Assembly (NCBI RefSeq): GCF_000002865.3
Contig: NW_001865083.1
Location: 1-37,069 of the forward strand
Length of the DNA: 37,069 nucleotides
Direction: 5' to 3'
From: Monosiga brevicollis MX1
Taxonomy: Eukaryota
The notes under the pieces are model-generated. The model was not told the origin of the DNA. It searched no databases and worked only from the letters and a program-made list of their open reading frames with translations. Positions 1 to 8,437 of this stretch are shown in pieces. Made by a program: the position numbers and the translations under genes. The number at the start of each line of letters is the position of its first letter. The stretch's first letter is position 1.

Positions 1-1516
1 TGCGATAAAAGTTGGGTGGTTTCCGTGAAGCACACGCAGCTGCAGATCGCGACGCATCGTCTCCAAACGGTACACCTTGCCCCCCACTTGCTGCCCCAGC
101 TTTCGAAACAGATGCTCCTGGTCCCCGATGCAAAGTGTGCCCGTCAACGCCACGCGTTTGATGTTGGCCCATCCGCCAGAACCCACACTGGCTGCGACTT
201 CGTCCATCACATCTCGGTAGCTGGCATCCGAGATGAGTGTGTGCGCCTCGTCCATCACCACGGTGCGGATGCGCTGAAAGCAGACCTTCCCGTGTAGCGA
301 TTCAGATCCCACGCGGACAAACATGTCGGTCGTAACGATGAGCACGTCCAGGCCATCTGCCACCTGTGTAGAGGGACCAAGCCATCGCTGGGCACTGTGA
401 CCTGCGCCTTGAAATCGCCGCAATAAATCGTTGGCCACGGCCACAAACGGCACAATCCACAGCACCGTACCGGCATGCGGGCGACAGCCCAGCTTGGGCA
501 GGGTACAAAATGTTTTACCCATGCCTGTCGGTGCAACAACAATCAGCCATCCATCCTCGGGCCGGTGCTGGTCAATGGCCGCAGCCAGGTCCAACTGTTC
601 TTGGCTGTTGAAACTGTGGCCCCAGGAGATGCTCGCCTGCTTGGCCAGCTGGGTCATGTAGGGTACGTCATGCTCGGCCCTCGTGTTCATGATGATACGC
701 CCGTTTGCTTCGGGCGAGAGGTCAGTCACCGGGTTCCAGCTGATGGGATAGCGAGCTTCCAATGCTTCTTGGTTCGCGGTCAACTCGGCCATGCTGCGCG
801 TGCGATCTAGTCCAAACAAAGCATGCCATTTTTTGCGAGGCCACTTGATGCATCAGTCGCGACGACATTTTGGTTTGCACATGGTCACTGGCTGTGCGCG
901 CATAGGCCCGCTGGGCCGTGTCCCCAGAGTGTTGAGGTTGAGTGTGGATCAGGCTGCCCAGGGCGCCGGTCGTCTCGGCCGACAGTCAGTTGATCACAAA
1001 CGTAGTCATCCAGAAGGTTGCGGCGTGTCGCCACGTGGCCACCCCCAGCTTTGGCCGATGCAGGTACGTGGTCATTTGTCGACGAAATGCCGCATAGATG
1101 GTGGCTGGGCTGACCATCGCCTGCAGGGGCGCAATATTGAAGAGGAGATGGCTGTTGTTGTAGTGGTTTCGAGCGTCCCGAACCTCGCGTCGCAATGTCA
1201 TCGTCTCGTCGTGGCTCATGTGGTCTTCATCCAGCTCGTCGTCGAGGAAATCTTCGTCGTCCTGCTCGGCATTGTGAAAGCCATTCTCGTCGTCGGGGGT
1301 TTTCAGCCCGCCCCGCTTTTGCAGCCAGCTGCTCAGCATGTGCTCCAGAGGCTTGCACAGCAGCAAATACATGAATATCAGCGTGCTGATTTCCTGGTCC
1401 ATGTATCGAAAGGTGTGCTGTTTGTTCAGAAGCAGCAGTTTTGGGTTTGCGAGGAAGCGGGTTGTGTCGAGAAGGCATTTTGAAAGAGGTTTGAGAGATA
1501 TGGTGGTGTCTCGAGG
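1..1516 (-). pseudogene. Telomere-linked RecQ-type (SF2 DEAH) helicase with upstream TLH-type domain; disrupted and running off the window edge
   Basis: Manual minus-strand translation of 828->1 (absent from the ORF track because it has no stop) gives Walker A VVAPTGMGKT (511-540), motif Ia LWIVPFVAVAND, motif II VVMDEAH (DEAH at 241-252), motif III ALTGT and ETMRRDLQLRV. The upstream frame (1516->829) reads RYMDQEISTLIFMYLLLCKP...LGVATWRHAATFW...QPQHSGDTAQRAYAR...VASQK/WHALFGL, resembling fungal TLH N-terminal regions as I recall them. There is an in-frame TGA at 986-988 and a 1-nt frameshift in the T6 run at 829-834. Confidence 0.85.
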
Positions 1517-1903
1517 TCAATTGAGCTAGCTGCGGTCGGCAAGCATTCACAGTGACCAGGCCAGATGCACTATTGGAAAGGCTCTACAGACGCACAGGGA
1601 AAGTGCAACCCGTGCCAGCCAGAGGTGTCACAACAAACAAACAAACAACAACGAAAAACCGTATACAAGCTTATCACACAAGGCTGTCTGCCAAGACATT
1701 GCAAAGTACACGAAGCACACGGGTCGACGCATGTGCCCCCTAGAGGGAAGGCACGCCTCAGTACGTCTAGGTGTGTATGTTAGTCAGGGGATGAAGTCAT
1801 GTCAGCTTCATAGGGGTTCCTGTGGTAAGACCCCTCGTCAATAACGCTGACCGTGTGCAAAAGCATCTGAACAAAGGATTTGCTGCTCACAACCAACTAG
1901 CAC

Positions 1904-4900
1904 CTAGTCCAGCACATCCTCATTGGCCGTGTAGTATACAACCAGCTCGGGATAAATTTGGGCATTGTCAAACACAATCACCTCATGGAATTCCCCAGAG
2001 GGTGTCGCGACGACCGAGTCATACCTGAAGAGAATTCAATGGCAAACGCAACAGTCGGATCAGAAGGTGGGCAAAGGCAACATGCAACAGATGGTCGATT
2101 TTGCCCAACGCACCGCTCGTTGTTGAGCGCATCGGGCAGGATCGGCGGGGCCAGGGCCCCCCTTCGTGGCGGCTCGTTCACAGAGGCCAGGCCAAGCAAA
2201 GCTCGCGTGATAATCAACATGCGCACCCCGTTGGATCCAGCTGTAGCGTACTGGTGACTCTAAAATCATGTGGCCGGCACAGTGTCAATACACTAGCGTT
2301 CAGAAGCTGAATTGACACAAAAACTCCACGTTACCACACCTTGCGGGGATCGTCGGCTAAATATACACCTCGGCCATACTTGTGGCCAGCATTGCTACCA
2401 GTAAAGCGAATATCTAGGCCCAGGCGCACGATCTTGTCGCGCAACCCTGGGAAGGGGCCGATGCCGTGGAGCAACAAACGCTCTTGACAGGATGTATTGC
2501 GAAGCAAAGCTGGAGAGCCCGAGAGCGCATCCCAGGCAGCCGTTTGGAGTTGATCATAGTGCTCCTGTCTTTTGATACGATGCAACATCTCGCGTCGCTT
2601 GGCACTGTAGCGCTCCCACAGCACGGGGTTTTGCACGCGCTCTACCCGTTGTACTGCGATATTGGCTGACCCCCACTCGTCAGTGCCCAGCTGCCTCAAA
2701 AGGTTAGCCACCTAGTCACACAATAAACGTATATTAGCAGGCTGTTGCAAAAGCGGTGCTTCATCGCCAACCAACGTACTTCTGGAATAAGCTCGGGCGC
2801 ATCACGCAAAACGTCAATGGCTGGCCCGACATGGGTGTCGACAAGTCGCTGAGCGTTTTGCACAATGCTGAGTAGGTGTGGACGTTGTTTTGGATCCGTT
2901 GCAAGCAAGGCGCGCGTTTCCTTGTACAATTTGCTCGTCGAATCGCACATCTGCAATGGAAAAAGGTACATGAGCTTAGAATGTGCTGGCCTTGCCTGAT
3001 CCAGCCGCACTGACCTCAGCAGCCAGATGCGGAAAGTTGCAGACAACATTTCCCGCTGGTAAAATCCAACTGCATTGATCCACAACCTCATCATCCCGTG
3101 GGTGAGCAGGTGGCACCGTTTGTGGGTACATGTAGGTGTTGTAGACAACACAGCCGAAGGAATAGGCATCTTGTGCTGGACGCGCCCCCACTCGGCCCCG
3201 GCCAAAAAGTACTTCGGGTGCCACATAGCCTGCCGTGCCCGACGATGCAGTGGCCGTGCATGGCAGCATGGTGGCTTCAGCAGCGGCTTTGGCAATGTCA
3301 AAGTCACCCAACCGCACGACGGGTTGATCCTCTGCGCCGTCCAGCATGACGTTGCTCAGCTTGACATCCCGATGCACCAGGCCCTTGCTATGCATAAACG
3401 CCAGGGCCGTGCGCAGCTGATTCATCATTTCCGAAATCACAGTTGAGGTGGCCATCTGGCGCGCCTTATCGAGCCACTGTCGCAGGTCTCCTTGCGAACA
3501 CCACGGCTGCACCAAATAGGCGCTGGGGTGGCCTTCCTTCATGTCCACAAGCGCGCCAAGGACCGGAACGATGTATGGGTGCTCAAGCTGGCGCATGGCG
3601 CGGAGCTCACGCAGAAATGTTCGGCACTGGTCCTGCTTATGTTGCCGAGCAAAAGCGTACTCCTTGACAGCCAAATCTTGTTCAGGACTCTCTGGAAGCG
3701 CGGCACGGGCCTTGTACACCTTGTGGTTTTGGTTGTCATGAAGGTCAAGCTGGCCCAGGCTGGAGAGCGTCAAACCTTGGTCTACTTCGGTCATGGCCTC
3801 CAAGATAAGGCTGGCTGGAAGGTCGGGACCAAGCACTGTGCGGAGCCGCGCTCCCAGCGTGCTTTGTTCAGGGTGCAGAAAGACCAGCAGGGCTGGGAAG
3901 TGCTGGTGCAACAGCTGGGCGAGCTCTGCGACGTGGTCCACTTGTGGCTGATTTGATACTTGTTGTCGTAAGGTATCCAGCCGTTCCTTCTTTTCTTGCA
4001 GCTTGTGTTCGAGGCTTGGACGCATATCCTCGGGCAAGAGCTGCAGTGCTGCGTTGACACCTTCAATCTCGGTCTGAAGTTTTGTCAGCTCTTCGTGGGC
4101 AGCCACCGATTCATCATCAACGTCTTGAGTCAAGCTGTTCACATGACTCATGCACGAGTCTAACACGGAGAGCGCCGTGGCCTGCCAGTCGATCATGTCT
4201 TGTAACTGCTGCAGCAGAGCTTGCGACTCGTGGTGTACAAACGCCAAGTACCAGTCCTGATGCTCGTAGTTTGGAGGTGGTTGCCACTGAGCAATTTGTT
4301 CGAGACCATTGTGCTCAAGCAGGCTCAGCTTCTCGTGAGCTTGGCACAGCTCCTCCCAGGCCTCGGGCAATGCCTCGGCTGGCGGCGGTGCACTTGCATC
4401 CACACATTGCGCGCATTGGCGAAGCGTCTCTACGCGATGAATTGTGTCGGTGGTTCCCGCTCTTGCCACAGCGCCCAGGGCATCGATCAAGGCCAACGCT
4501 AGGCACTTGAGGTTGCTGTTGGCGCTGGTGAGCAGCTCTTGACGCTTGGTTTCTACGTCGTGTAGCACGGCAATTTTGCCCAGGGCTGCCCCAAGGTTGG
4601 TGGGCGGCGTTTTGGGTGCGTTTGTCAGAGCGGTGGGTGGAGCGGGGCACGCTGCCAGCAGGGTCTGAAGCTCAAGAAGCACCGGCTTCAGCTTAAAACC
4701 AGCAGTGACATTGTGCATCTCTTGCAGCACTGATTTTAGACTGTCAGCGTTTGGGTCCAATTGCTTCAAGCGGCTGCTCAATGCTTCGGGTGCTTCCAGT
4801 GCTTGGTCGAGCGCGTTGAGGGCCTGGGTGGTTGTTGCCTGGAAGGCAACCCAGTCCATAGCAGGAAACTCTGATGGGGCTTCATCGATGGTCTTTTGGA

Positions 4901-7900
4901 TGTTAGCAACCGCCGCTGCAAGATTGGGATTTTCTTTGGCGGCACCGCTGATAAAGGCATCGAGGTGTGGTAGAGTATGGGTGGTGGTGCGCTCCGGCAG
5001 GAGTGGCCTGAGCCAGGTGTCCACCGCCACCACAACAGAGGCTGTGGTCTAAATAAGGATTGCGTGGTGCCATGCGTTGTGATGAGGTGGAATGAGGCTG
5101 TGTGGGTGATGGGGCAGTAAATGCATTTGGAATGCAAGAGGGGCAGGCCTACCTTGAGGGTCGGTGCAGGGCTGGGCAGGGGCGGCAGCCAGAGAAGACC
5201 CTTGTGAGCAGCAAAGACGAGCTTCAGCTTGTCGCCATACCCGTTGGCACATCCCAAATCGAGGGGTGATTCGCTTGCCTGAGAACATGGCCACAATCAA
5301 GCGATTGGAGCGTGTGAGATGGGCAGTGAAACGAGGGTTAAGTTGGGTGATGGGTGTTTGCTTTCTCATGTCAAAGGCAAGGCGACAATGCTTCAGAGTT
5401 CGCTGAAAACGCTAGACGCAAGAGCATTCGACGAACGGCTCAGACAGGTCGCAAGGGTTTGAAAGGAAGCGCGGTTGGAGAAAAAAAGTGGGGGCGCCGA
5501 GTGTGGCGGGGGTTAATTTGAAGAAATGGCCACCAAGAGCCGCTGGAGAGCGAGAGGCAGCGGCGTGGTGACAAGGAATGAAGAGGTACCCAGATTGAAG
5601 TCACAGCATCAGGAAAGGGAAGAGCGAGGCCAGCAGGCGGAAGAGACCAGCAGGGAACTGGGCGGAGTGCAAGGAGCACCGACAAAGCGTGGACGCAAAA
5701 CGGGGGAAGAAAAGGGATAGCGGGAAAGAAGACAAAGAGCCAGAGGTAGAACGGACGCGCACGGTGGGCAGGGTGTAGAGGAGCGAGGGTTTGGGCAAAG
5801 GCGACGAGCAGCGGGAGCAGGAGCAGCAACCAGAGGGGGTACAGGGAAGAGGGAAGTATTGTACTGACGTAGTTCTTGGTTTCAGTATCAACACCGTGCT
5901 CCAACAGCATCTCTACCACCTTGGCATGACCCTCAATGCAGGCCTTGTGCAGTGGTGTACAGCCATCCTGTAGGATGATGCATCAGCATGACGTACAGGT
6001 ACAACATCAACATCATTGTCATCTTCATCATGTGGTACAGGTGCATCAGGGGGAGGGGGAGGGGGAAAGTGGCAGGTACTGTTCTGACGTTGTCTTTGGC
6101 TTTGGCGTCAACACCGTGCTTCAACAGCATCTCCACCACCGTGACATGACCCTCAATGCAGGCCTTGTGCAGTGGTGTATAGCCACCCTGTGGGATGATC
6201 CATCAGCATTAGGTACATACAGGACATCATCATCATCATCATCGTCATCTTCATCATGTGGTACAGGTGCTTCAGGGGGAGGGGCGGTGGAAGTGGCAGG
6301 TACTGTTCTGACGTTGTCTTTGGCTTCGGCGTCAACATCGTGCTTCAACAGCATCTCTACCACCTTGACATGACCCTCAATGCAGGCCTTGTGCAGTGGT
6401 GTGTTGTCACCCTGTGGGATAATCCATCAGCATACAGGTACATCATCATAATCATCATCATCATCATCATTATCATCATGTGGTGCAGGTGTAGGAGGTA
6501 AGGGGGGGAAGAGGGAGGTTCTGTACTGACGTTGTTCTTGACTTTTGCATCAGCACCGTGCTTCAACAGCAGCTCCATCACCTTCACGTGGCCGCTAGCG
6601 AAGGCCGAGTGGAGTGGTGTACTGTCCTCCTGTGGGATAATGCATCAGCATTAGCAACGGCATCATCGTTATGAGGTATAGGTGCACCACCAAGGAGGAG
6701 CGAGGCGAAAAAAATAAGAATGGTCACTGAAAGCTGCTTGAGTGCGCGATGGCACGGGGTGGGGTGGTGCCCGGATTAAGTCACGACATCACCAAAAAAC
6801 AAGACGAGCAAGAAGCACCGACACAAAGTGTAAAAAAAAACAGGGGACGAGAAGGGGAAGTAGGAAAGGAGAAAAGAGCAGAATGCAAAGGCGGGAGGGG
6901 CAGGGCAAAGGCGACGAGCAGCGGGAGCAGGAGCAGCAGCCAAAGGGGGTGCAGGGAAGAGGGAGGTACTGTACGGACCTTGTTCTTGGTTTCAGCATCA
7001 ACACCGTGTTCCAACAGCATCTCCACCACCTCGACATGACCGCTAGCGCAGGCCAAGTGCATTGGTGTATCGCCACGCTGTGGGATGATGCATCAGCATG
7101 ACGTACAGGTACAGCATCATCACCATCATCATCACCATCATCATGGGGTACAGGTGCACCATCATAGGGGGGTAAAGGGAGGGACTGTACTGACGCTGTC
7201 CTTGGCTTCAGCATCAGCGTGCTTTAACAGCATCTCCACCTCCTCGACATGACCGCTAGCGCAGGCCTCCTGCAGTGGTGTACGGCCACCCTGTGGGGAG
7301 CATGCACCAGCATGACGTACAGGTACAACATCATTATCATCATCATCAATCATGTGGTACAGGTGCACCATCATAGGGGGGTAAAGAGGGGGAAAAGGGA
7401 GGTTCTGTACTGACGCTGTCCTTGGCTTCAGCATCAACACCGTGCTTCAACAGCACCTTCACCACCTTGACATGACCTTTTTTGCGGGCATAGTGCAGTG
7501 GTGTCCAGCCAGACTGTGGGATGATGCATCAACATGACGTAAAGGTACAGCATCATCATCAGCAGGTCTACCATCACAGATAGAGGAGGGGTAGTTAAAG
7601 GGGCAGGAGGTAGGTACTGTACTGACGTAGCCCTTAACTTCAGTATCAGCACCGTGCTTCAACAGCATCTCCACCACCTCGTCATGACCGTTAAAGCAGG
7701 CTCTGTGCAGTGGTGTACCGCCATACTGTGGGATGATGCAGACATGCAGTATAAGTCCCATGTTATACCATAACGTCACCCCATCCAGTGACATATTCAA
7801 AGTGTAACCAATATCACACGTCATTACATCAAACAGCATACATACCACATCACCTTTGTATTGGGCAGCATCTCGAATACGTTCATGGTCCCAGCTGGTC

Positions 7901-7971
7901 AACAGCTGCACCGCCAATAGGGGATCAGATGCGTTACACGCTTCGTGCAGCTGCCTTCCATCATCACTCAT
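1904..7971 (-). CDS. Ankyrin-repeat / coiled-coil / Ser-Thr protein kinase / PARP catalytic domain fusion protein (15 exons)
   Basis: Exons with GT-AG and compatible phases: 7846-7971 (alternative ATG at 8001), 7627-7725, 7415-7513, 7195-7290, 6979-7077, 6531-6629, 6313-6411, 6089-6187, 5869-5967, 5153-5278, 3015-5048, 2780-2950, 2340-2711, 2114-2259, 1904-2024. Ankyrin consensus G.TPLH.AC..GH..VVEMLLKHG.D...KD. Kinase motifs AVKE, RELRAMRQLEHPYIV, HRDVKLSNVML, DFD, GTAGYVAPE, DAYSFG, DPKQRP. PARP motifs VQNPVLWERY, LLHG, YGRGVYLADDPRKSHQY, RALLG, YDSV, HEVIVFDNAQIYPELVVYY. Confidence 0.88.
5869..7725 (-). repeat. Tandem array of eight exon+intron units, each exon encoding one 33-aa ankyrin repeat
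   Basis: Seven 99-bp exons and one 96-bp exon, all phase 0. The flanking introns are similar: donor GTCAG/GTCCG, (GAT)n tracts, acceptor CCCACAG/CCTACAG. Period is mostly ~210-225 bp. Confidence 0.93.
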
Positions 7972-8437
7972 GGTAACGGTATAACTCTCTCTATTCACCA
8001 TCCCGCTTGCTTGCTTCTCTATCCACCACCAATTTCATGAGCCCCCTCCAAGTACAACTCTCCGGACTGGGATCCAACAGGCGCGTGCCGTTTCCAAAAG
8101 GGCAGCCTGTCAGCGGGCGCTGCTCTCCTCTGCCTGATGCACCAAACGACCCACCTTGGACCAAATATCTTGTGTGACAGTTGCAAGGACAGGTGTACTT
8201 GGTTTCCAAAGGGCACGTTGTCGACTGCGAGGCGAGATCAGTGGTCTCACATTGATGAAAGCAAAGACAATAACCCTCTCAATCAAACGTTCGGGCGTCG
8301 CCGCAAGGCCCCGACCAGGAAAGTCCCGTACCAAGCACAAACGATCAGTCACCACACACACAAAGCAAGACACCTCAAGCAGCCCGCCGATGCCGATATC
8401 GAGACCGAAACCGCTGCCAAAAAAGGGCGACACGAAC

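What the first reader, a model, noticed from the sequence alone, without database searches (positions are those of the whole stretch)
829..1550. Tyrosine-recombinase-like catalytic spacing in the domain upstream of the telomere-linked helicase
Seen: LGVATWRHAATFW (WRH at 1025-1033), then after ~20 aa QHSGDTAQRAY (His 929-931, Tyr 902-904). A possible first Arg lies in ACRPQLAQL at ~1520-1545, in a shifted frame and weak. Established: tyrosine recombinases end in HxLRH...LGH-x(8-9)-Y, with Tyr as the nucleophile. Inference: the helicase's partner domain may be a divergent YR, making TLH a recombinase-helicase fusion from a mobile or subtelomere-recombining element rather than a plain RecQ gene.
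Basis: partly seen in the sequence, partly recalled or inferred. Interest (0 to 1): 0.8.

Follow-up and report, generated by a model that had tools for sequence, protein, structure and literature searches.

The report
Recombinase-like domain in choanoflagellate telomere helicase
This is a dead, front-truncated copy of a Monosiga brevicollis telomere-linked helicase gene. Its unexplained 'TLH domain' is predicted to fold like a DNA-cutting tyrosine recombinase, so intact copies likely cut and rejoin DNA as well as unwind it.

Summary
The motifs are real. WRH lies at 1033-1025, His at 931-929 and Tyr at 904-902 on the minus strand. They sit in a pseudogene copy of the Monosiga brevicollis telomere-linked helicase (TLH) family. 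This copy loses homology at 1429/1430, has a TGA at 986-988 where other copies read CGA, and has one extra A at 829-834.

The true first Arg and the hairpin Lys are found only in intact paralogs.

One Monosiga subfamily has lost Arg, His and Tyr.

Eight library searches linked TLH to no recombinase. The two founding TLH papers are not held. This scan reached the same reading before on fungal DNA. Catalysis and mobility are untested.

The parts
1..828 (-). Start of the RecQ-like SF2 helicase part of the TLH gene (linker plus DEAD/DEAH domain). It reads in a different frame from the TLH domain and runs off the window at base 1.
   Evidence: Pfam DEAD E 3.5e-13 and ResIII E 5.5e-7 on the 1..852 frame. 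70-97% identity to 24 paralog proteins over 834..1.
829..834 (-). A-run carrying one extra A. This frameshift separates the TLH-domain frame from the helicase frame.
   Evidence: Paralogs read ...SQKWHALFGLD across it. The contigs that cover this place in all 4 laid runs (one per run) lack one base at 829 (table 4).
835..1429 (-). Rear two-thirds of the TLH domain, which is a predicted tyrosine-recombinase-like catalytic domain. It corresponds to residues 119-320 of the 328-residue domain of paralog P0005.
   Evidence: 97% identity to the P0002 domain. Residue mapping. Fold and profile evidence.
1025..1033 (-). WRH. The Arg (1030-1028) aligns with Arg II of tyrosine recombinases.
   Evidence: R254 is invariant in A2 and is Arg in 206 of 210 homolog rows. 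hhalign places it on the R of XerD's HVLRH motif.
986..988 (-). In-frame TGA stop specific to this copy. Other copies read CGA (Arg).
   Evidence: Paralogs have R at this column. The contigs that cover this place in all 4 laid runs (one per run) read G instead of A at 988 (table 3).
929..931 (-). His aligned with His III (the LGH motif) of tyrosine recombinases.
   Evidence: H287 is His in 174 of 180 rows. hhalign register.
902..904 (-). Tyr aligned with the catalytic tyrosine nucleophile, eight residues after the His.
   Evidence: Y296 is Tyr in 173 of 177 rows. hhalign register.
1150..1310 (-). Acidic insertion (approximate bounds) found only in the Monosiga copies. It lies within the low-confidence part of the model.
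   Evidence: Every non-Monosiga row visible in the alignment printout has a gap here; the alignment holds 55 sequences, but the middle of the output was cut. pLDDT is below 50 at model residues 169-184 and 57-70 for the 10-residue blocks from 161 to 230.
1430..1904 (.). Sequence upstream of the break that is not homologous to TLH. It is not part of the domain.
   Evidence: No paralog match beyond 1435. Loose ends at 1429 and 1420 in contigs of other copies (table 7).

Best explanation
The stretch is the rear two-thirds of the 'TLH domain' of a dead, 5'-truncated copy of the Monosiga brevicollis telomere-linked helicase gene. This domain has the predicted fold and the conserved Arg-Lys-Arg-His-Tyr set of a tyrosine recombinase, so intact copies likely cut and rejoin DNA through the tyrosine while the fused RecQ-like helicase unwinds it.

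Shown:
- The copy is a family member.
- It carries three defects: a break at 1429/1430, a TGA at 986-988, and an extra A at 829-834.
- The predicted fold matches tyrosine recombinases.
- The five residues are conserved and align in register with the catalytic residues.

Inferred:
- The domain forms a covalent 3'-phosphotyrosyl intermediate.
- It works together with the helicase, for example the helicase could drive strand separation or branch migration of the junctions that the recombinase makes.
- This serves recombination that spreads or reshuffles TLH units among chromosome ends.

The window copy itself would be inert. It lacks Arg I and the Lys, and it cannot be translated through.
For: Family membership:
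- 24 proteins match with E 0.001 or better at up to 97% identity. 21 carry M. brevicollis names and 3 are unnamed.
- The 2024 preprint names M. brevicollis TLH genes, citing Robertson 2009, and describes a 'TLH domain' of about 250 residues before the helicase (passages read).

Defects of this copy.

Fold:
- AlphaFold2 with a 36-sequence alignment and no templates gave pLDDT 76.2 and pTM 0.73.
- Foldseek: the first 26 listed rows are all of that group, with best probability 0.93.

Sequence:
- hhalign of the 55-sequence TLH profile against a 15-sequence profile (13 E. coli K-12 integrases/recombinases, lambda Int and Cre) gave score 41.4, P 2.5e-5 and probability 75% over 196 columns.
- It aligns R81 to Arg I, K115 to the hairpin Lys, R254 to Arg II, H287 to His III and Y296 to Tyr.
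- Controls: the reversed template scored 13.3 (P 0.38). The best of 20 column shuffles scored 16.3 (P 0.13).
- One homolog (P0061) gives Pfam Phage_integrase at E 3.4e-4 on exactly this domain.

Conservation in non-Monosiga homologs:
- R81 252 of 255; K115 257 of 259; R254 206 of 210; H287 174 of 180; Y296 173 of 177.
- All five are present in 152 of 165 rows that cover them.

Loss pattern: Monosiga subfamily B changed R to Q, H to P and Y to F together, while keeping the rest of the domain.

Lead only: the nearest named ESM Atlas clusters are Phage_integrase, NDC10_II, DUF3435 and ResT-TelK, with scores 0.84-0.87.
Against: - No member reaches Pfam's Phage_integrase cut-off: 0 of the 36 domain pieces and 0 of 110 whole homologs. 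The single sub-threshold hit is marginal once 110 proteins are counted.
- A profile search of all PDB sequences found nothing at E 10 or better.
- hhalign against Cre alone found nothing.
- No Foldseek row reaches E 0.001; the best is 0.056.
- The classical HxxR histidine is missing. That column is mostly S, A, Q or L.
- The model is weakest just after the tyrosine (pLDDT below 50 at residues 295-305).
- I could not see coordinates, so the clustering of the five residues in space is unchecked.
- Fold relatives such as Ndc10 bind DNA without cutting it.
- Catalysis, target sites and telomere adjacency of this copy were not testable. No TTAGGG repeats occur in the window and no genome is held.
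Confidence: 0.55

Rival explanations
1. The domain is an active DNA breaking-rejoining enzyme, but it works like a type IB topoisomerase. It would act as a swivel that removes the torsional stress or hemicatenanes made by its own helicase, comparable to the RecQ-Top3 partnership or reverse gyrase. It would not act as a site-specific recombinase.
For: - The conserved set is R-K-R-H plus Y, with no His at the HxxR position. By recall, that is the pentad of vaccinia and human topoisomerase I.
- The domain is permanently fused to a RecQ-like helicase: DEAD and Helicase_C lie downstream in the longer homologs.
Against: - The XerA match runs to the last helix of the model (62..328). That helix carries a near-invariant Trp (141 of 147), which by recall resembles the C-terminal helix that recombinases exchange between subunits.
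- The hhalign match is to integrases. No topoisomerase profile was available for comparison.
Confidence: 0.2
2. The domain keeps the recombinase fold only as a DNA-binding or scaffolding module, as in Ndc10 or domesticated Crypton proteins. TLH proteins would then act purely as helicases at chromosome ends.
For: - Monosiga subfamily B persists in several copies without Arg I, His and Tyr.
- The HxxR His is absent in the whole family.
Against: Five residues with no obvious structural role are kept in 152 of 165 divergent homologs. They align with the catalytic residues. Such retention is not expected of a purely binding module. The joint loss of three of them in one subfamily looks like a secondary inactivation.
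Confidence: 0.15
3. The resemblance is chance. RH...H-x8-Y is a short, loose pattern and the domain is unrelated to recombinases.
For: - Pfam and PDB sequence searches give no significant match.
Against: - Profile-profile P is 2.5e-5, against P 0.13 or worse in 21 controls.
- All five catalytic positions align in register.
Confidence: 0.03

Closest known systems
[quoted passage not shown]
   Same: The window copy belongs to this family. Full-length paralogs and homologs share the order N-terminal C2H2/OrsD, long middle region, TLH domain, then DEAD and Helicase_C.
   Different: In the passages I read, the literature treats the TLH domain as a conserved motif with no assigned function. Here it is read as a recombinase-type catalytic domain. 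This particular copy is truncated and broken.
Simple Xer/Cre/integrase-type tyrosine recombinases (archaeal XerA 4a8e and 5hxy, XerH 5jjv, Cre 1kbu, Brujita Int 5vfz; Pfam PF00589)
   Different: - No His three residues before Arg II.
- Extra invariant residues: R98, N92, R128, W321.
- 32 residues from Arg II to His III in Monosiga, against 22 in XerD as read from the alignment.
- Below Pfam's cut-off.
- Fused in one polypeptide to zinc fingers and an SF2 helicase.
Type IB topoisomerases (bacterial 3m4a, Leishmania 2b9s, variola 2h7f)
   Different: Lower structural scores than the recombinases. By recall, topoisomerases are not fused to helicases in this way.
Eukaryotic tyrosine-recombinase transposons (Crypton, DIRS/Ngaro, Starship captains with DUF3435)
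   Same: Eukaryotic, multi-copy elements that encode tyrosine recombinases. A DUF3435 cluster appears among the ESM Atlas look-alikes at 0.85 (a lead only).
   Different: - No Pfam DUF3435 or Phage_integrase match on the 36 domain pieces.
- The Crypton paper PMC3212892 has 0 occurrences of 'helicase' and 'Monosiga' (term search).
- None of those elements is described with a fused RecQ-like helicase in the papers listed.
Helitron Rep-Hel proteins (recalled, not tested)
   Same: They work alike in outline: a tyrosine-using DNA-cleaving domain fused to a helicase in one large protein of a multi-copy element.
   Different: By recall, a different nuclease fold (HUH) and a different helicase family (Pif1). 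No homology is implied.

Membership tests
Tyrosine recombinase superfamily (Xer/Cre/lambda Int type) | Catalytic-domain fold | tested here: met
Tyrosine recombinase superfamily (Xer/Cre/lambda Int type) | Arg I in box I | tested here: met
   R81 is Arg in 252 of 255 homolog rows and aligns to the R of XerD's GLRVSEL motif. It is intact in Monosiga subfamilies A and C, is Q in subfamily B, and is absent from the window copy because of the truncation.
Tyrosine recombinase superfamily (Xer/Cre/lambda Int type) | Lys in the beta2-beta3 hairpin | tested here: met
   K115 is Lys in 257 of 259 rows. In the model it lies between strands 106-113 and 124-129. It aligns to the hairpin Lys column. It is absent from the window copy.
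Tyrosine recombinase superfamily (Xer/Cre/lambda Int type) | His II - x - x - Arg II | tested here: not met
   Arg II is present (206 of 210). The column three residues before it is S 57, A 50, Q 31, L 16, R 14, G 12 of 213 rows; His is not among the six commonest. By recall, type IB topoisomerases and telomere resolvases also lack this His.
Tyrosine recombinase superfamily (Xer/Cre/lambda Int type) | His/Trp III followed by the Tyr nucleophile | tested here: met
   H287 is His in 174 of 180 rows and Y296 is Tyr in 173 of 177 rows. The spacing is x8, both here and in the XerD row of the alignment. Both are present in the window at 931-929 and 904-902.
Tyrosine recombinase superfamily (Xer/Cre/lambda Int type) | Sequence-model membership (Pfam PF00589 gathering score) | tested here: not met
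   0 of 36 domain pieces and 0 of 110 whole homologs reach 27.1 bits. One reaches 20.9 bits (E 3.4e-4). Profile-profile P of 2.5e-5 supports distant homology.
Tyrosine recombinase superfamily (Xer/Cre/lambda Int type) | N-terminal core-binding domain forming a clamp | not tested
   The step that would have aligned and folded the region upstream of the domain was stopped. Model residues 1-56 are barely covered by the matches.
Tyrosine recombinase superfamily (Xer/Cre/lambda Int type) | Covalent 3'-phosphotyrosyl intermediate and strand exchange at defined sites | not testable with these tools
   This needs biochemistry and complete chromosome ends. No genome is held for the window.
Telomere-linked helicase (TLH) family | TLH domain directly upstream of a RecQ-like DEAD/Helicase_C core | tested here: met
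   Window positions 1429..835 and 828..1 match 24 paralogs. DEAD E 3.5e-13. The Helicase_C part lies beyond the window.
Telomere-linked helicase (TLH) family | N-terminal C2H2 zinc fingers | tested here: not met
   Present in full-length paralogs (OrsD/PF12013 in P0012) and in 15 of 40 homologs scanned. Absent from this copy, which begins at domain residue 119.
Telomere-linked helicase (TLH) family | Position next to a telomere | not testable with these tools
   The gene runs off the window at base 1. There are 0 TTAGGG-repeat matches in the window and no genome is held.
Type IB topoisomerase | Fold and R-K-R-H plus Y set | tested here: inconclusive
Crypton / DUF3435 eukaryotic recombinases | Match to PF11917 or to Crypton recombinases | tested here: inconclusive
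   No PF11917 hit at E 1 or better on the 36 domain pieces. The only sign is an ESM Atlas look-alike at 0.85. No library of Crypton sequences or of AlphaFold DB structures was on hand.

The most novel reading that the evidence does not exclude
TLH genes are the protein machines of an ancient opisthokont class of self-propagating chromosome-end elements. In this reading a tyrosine recombinase is welded to a RecQ-like helicase and zinc fingers, and it cuts, unwinds and rejoins DNA to copy or move the unit between telomere-adjacent sites. The class would be conserved from fungi to choanoflagellates. Monosiga subfamily B would be a recombinase-dead derivative that relies on active copies or has been domesticated.
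Probability: 0.3. Interest if true: 0.85.

Novelty: new variant of a known kind. Interest (0 to 1): 0.7.

Why it matters
TLH genes have been known at chromosome ends of fungi and of M. brevicollis since 1998-2009. In the passages I read from a 2024 preprint, their conserved 'TLH domain' still has no assigned function.

Reading it as a recombinase-type catalytic domain gives a concrete, mutable active site: Arg, Lys, Arg, His and Tyr. It also gives direct assays, namely covalent complex formation, plasmid relaxation, junction resolution and Tyr-to-Phe alleles.

This could explain how these genes spread among chromosome ends and why they are induced in telomerase-minus survivors.

The Monosiga data add three things to the fungal cases. 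The domain and its residues are kept outside fungi. Three subfamilies coexist in one genome. One of those subfamilies has lost three catalytic residues together.

A recombinase fused to a RecQ-like helicase would be a new protein architecture among DNA breaking-rejoining enzymes.

Tried and rejected
- **Own-genome search:** not possible, as no genome is held.
- **Pfam on the window ORFs and paralogs:** only helicase, ankyrin and OrsD families, no recombinase family.
- **PDB sequence search with the A2 profile:** 0 hits at E 10 or better.
- **hhalign of A2 against Cre alone:** nothing.
- **Search with E. coli XerD to build a diverse profile:** the 120 listed proteins were all 88% or more identical and useless for that purpose. 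I used the 13 PF00589 matches of E. coli K-12 instead.
- **The search for related loci with A2 in metagenome contigs:** the alignment had no stretch conserved enough.
rejected.
- **Reading the TGA as part of a short intron:** the only GT...AG around it is 44 bases by my count, which is not a multiple of three. Other copies simply read CGA there.
- **Telomere repeats in the window:** none.
- **Rfam and ARAGORN on 1431-1620:** nothing. There is no second copy of that stretch in the window.
- **Papers:** Robertson 2009 and Rehmeyer 2009 are not held. I cannot exclude that they mention a recombinase likeness.
- **Databases:** InterPro, SUPERFAMILY and Gene3D annotations of TLH proteins could not be consulted.
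- **Region upstream of the domain:** folding it to look for a core-binding domain was stopped and remains open.
- **First read-laying attempt:** The stretch 1-1600 was laid instead.
- **Two machine failures:**. Both were repeated successfully.

Full report
**What is in the window**

On the minus strand, bases 1..1435 match a multi-copy protein family. 24 proteins match with E 0.001 or better among 296 candidates. 21 are named M. brevicollis gene models and 3 are unnamed. Identity reaches 97%. No listed protein is identical to the window copy (best 98% over 38% of the query), so this copy looks unannotated.

Full-length members have this order: an N-terminal C2H2/OrsD region, a long middle region, the domain in question, DEAD plus Helicase_C, and a Cys-rich tail.

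[quoted passage not shown] It also states that TLH proteins share C2H2 fingers, RecQ motifs and a 'TLH domain' of about 250 residues before the helicase. I read passages only. The finding lies in that TLH domain.

**Checking the observation**

The letters and coordinates are right for three motifs:
- WRH at 1033-1025.
- His at 931-929.
- Tyr at 904-902.

31 residues lie between the RH and the His, not about 20.

The copy is broken in three ways:
1. Homology to all paralogs starts at 1435. Contigs of other copies, laid from four public runs, leave the window at 1429 and at 1420. Their reverse complements read TRVSKTYWLS (subfamily A) and GKTHGLSLDE (subfamily B), which are the intact continuations. 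The copy is therefore 5'-truncated at 1429/1430.
2. The TGA at 986-988 is CGA (Arg) in paralogs and in the contigs of all four runs.
3. The A-run at 829-834 has one extra A relative to the contigs and to the paralog proteins.

A permissive tblastn with E up to 50 finds only noise there, so that match is chance. The window copy keeps Arg II, the His and the Tyr, but lacks Arg I and the Lys.

**The family**

A HMMER search of 1.84 billion representative proteins with a three-sequence profile gave 220 proteins at E 0.001 or better. Pfam scans of 110 of the 150 listed proteins show the same order:
- OrsD, then this domain, then DEAD and Helicase_C.
- In one search, 15 of 40 proteins have OrsD and 18 of 40 have DEAD.
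- One search shows the same families.

A word-based profile search gave 282 shorter proteins. The named ones among the 120 listed are from fungi, including Aspergillus, Penicillium, Pyrenophora, Fusarium and Neofusicoccum. One named relative is from the fungus Sorochytrium. No hit carries a precomputed recombinase family.

**Is it a tyrosine recombinase fold?**

Negative sequence results:
- Pfam on 36 domain pieces found no recombinase family.
- Among the 110 whole homologs, only P0061 gives Phage_integrase, at E 3.4e-4. The hit lies at 690-862, on the domain, and is below the cut-off.
- A PDB sequence search with the profile found nothing.
- hhalign against Cre alone found nothing.

Structure:
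- AlphaFold2 was run on the domain of intact paralog P0005 (residues 420-747) with a 36-sequence alignment and no templates. It gave pLDDT 76.2 and pTM 0.73.
- The order of elements is: a long helix, a short helix, three strands, then helices.
- Foldseek against the PDB found no row at E 0.001 or better. Its first 26 listed rows are XerH, XerA, Cre/Tre, IntI, TelA, topoisomerase IB and Flp, with best E 0.056 and probability 0.93.
- VIA-align against 48,161 representative chains, without Foldseek pre-filtering, gave:
  - XerA 5hxy at 10.2, Brujita integrase at 10.2, Cre at 9.4 and XerH at 9.4.
- Rows 1-32 are recombinases, type IB topoisomerases, protelomerases or Ndc10. By my recall they also include recombinase-fold proteins such as MrpR, SroF and the QRICH1 chain of 9hjt.

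Profile against profile:
- I took the 13 PF00589 matches of E. coli K-12, lambda Int and Cre. I aligned their last 215 residues and ran hhalign against the 55-sequence TLH alignment.
- The result was score 41.4, P 2.5e-5 and probability 75% over 196 columns.
- The reversed template scored 13.3 (P 0.38). Twenty column shuffles scored at most 16.3 (P 0.13 or worse).
- The alignment puts R81 on Arg I, K115 on the hairpin Lys, R254 on Arg II, H287 on His III and Y296 on the tyrosine.
- The ESM Atlas look-alikes are Phage_integrase, NDC10_II, DUF3435 and ResT-TelK, at 0.84-0.87. They agree but are only a lead.

**Conservation**

In 268 domain rows of 260 non-Monosiga proteins:

| Position | Count |
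|---|---|
| R81 | 252 of 255 |
| K115 | 257 of 259 |
| R254 | 206 of 210 |
| H287 | 174 of 180 |
| Y296 | 173 of 177 |
| All five | 152 of 165 rows that cover them |

The column where classical recombinases have the HxxR histidine is S, A, Q or L. So the set is R-K-R-H plus Y, which by recall is the type IB topoisomerase constellation.

The family has its own extra near-invariant residues: H73, G77, P79, E84, N92, R98, R128, Q284, S318 and W321.

In Monosiga:
- Subfamily A (the window's) keeps all five residues.
- Subfamily C also keeps all five.
- Subfamily B has Q, P and F at Arg I, His III and Tyr.

**How it likely works**

Shown: the predicted fold, the register of the residues, their conservation, and the fusion to a helicase.

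Inferred:
- The tyrosine attacks DNA to form a covalent intermediate.
- The helicase cooperates with the domain.
- The pair recombines or spreads TLH units among chromosome ends.

I put about 0.9 on distant homology to the recombinase/topoisomerase IB fold group. I put about 0.55 on the recombinase-type mechanism as stated.

Rivals:
- A topoisomerase-like swivel for the helicase: 0.2.
- A non-catalytic DNA-binding module: 0.15.
- Chance: 0.03.

**What remains open**

- The region upstream of the domain was not folded, so a possible core-binding domain is untested.
- I could not inspect model coordinates.
- Telomere adjacency, unit ends and target sites could not be examined, because no genome is held.

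**Novelty**

Eight library searches (and the term search) found no paper that joins TLH with a tyrosine recombinase. The 2024 Fusarium TLH preprint and the Botrytis preprint each have 0 occurrences of 'recombinase'.

The two founding papers are not held, and domain databases could not be consulted.

This scan has reached the same reading before on other DNA: 44 notes in at least 17 genomes. The eight notes shown all concern fungal TLH relics. I reached my reading, before seeing them, and I tested it independently here. The choanoflagellate case, its three subfamilies and the recombinase-dead subfamily B are the additions.

Noticed in passing
window 1501-1570: A stretch of about 65 bases just upstream of the TLH break is about 92% like a sequence of very high depth in all four laid runs. 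The summed contig depth in bin 1513-1566 reaches 117,510 in X2, against 68-300 over most of the TLH part. Loose ends lie on both sides. There is no Rfam family, no tRNA and no second copy in the window. It is unexplained.
   Followed up: partly
window about 1905-8000, minus strand: The gene upstream of the TLH relic encodes ankyrin repeats and a protein kinase. A C-terminal PARP domain is inferred from its paralog. It is 69% identical to M. brevicollis model MONBRDRAFT_30380 (P0023; Pkinase, PARP and Ank by precomputed Pfam). That paralog's model also ends in a short TLH-derived piece (P0023 residues 1234-1272 match window 1393-1277). This suggests that the block of this gene plus a TLH relic has been duplicated between loci.
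   Followed up: partly
paralog proteins P0002 and P0003 (M. brevicollis gene models): These models hold two TLH domains in a row: a divergent subfamily-C piece (about 30% identity to the window) upstream of a subfamily-A copy. P0003 and P0006 also begin with ankyrin repeats. These are probably merged gene models over tandem or nested TLH copies next to ankyrin genes.
   Followed up: partly
paralog proteins P0011-P0015 and P0022 (subfamily B): One Monosiga TLH subfamily has Gln, Pro and Phe in place of Arg I, His III and the Tyr. It keeps the Lys, Arg II and the rest of the domain. The DEAD match of its member P0012 is also weak (E 1e-4, below the cut-off).
   Followed up: partly
homologs P0042, P0048, P0050, P0055, P0061, P0065, P0077: Full-length relatives of 1461-1742 residues sit on contigs of only 5.5-7.8 kb, so the contig is little more than the gene. 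That is what repeats of a fixed unit length give in short-read assemblies. The flanks could not be fetched here.
   Followed up: no
laid runs X8, X9, X13, X14 and X8: Runs labelled as marine metagenomes hold contigs 90-99% like this TLH copy, with the same CGA and the same shorter A-run as the culture-labelled runs.
   Followed up: no
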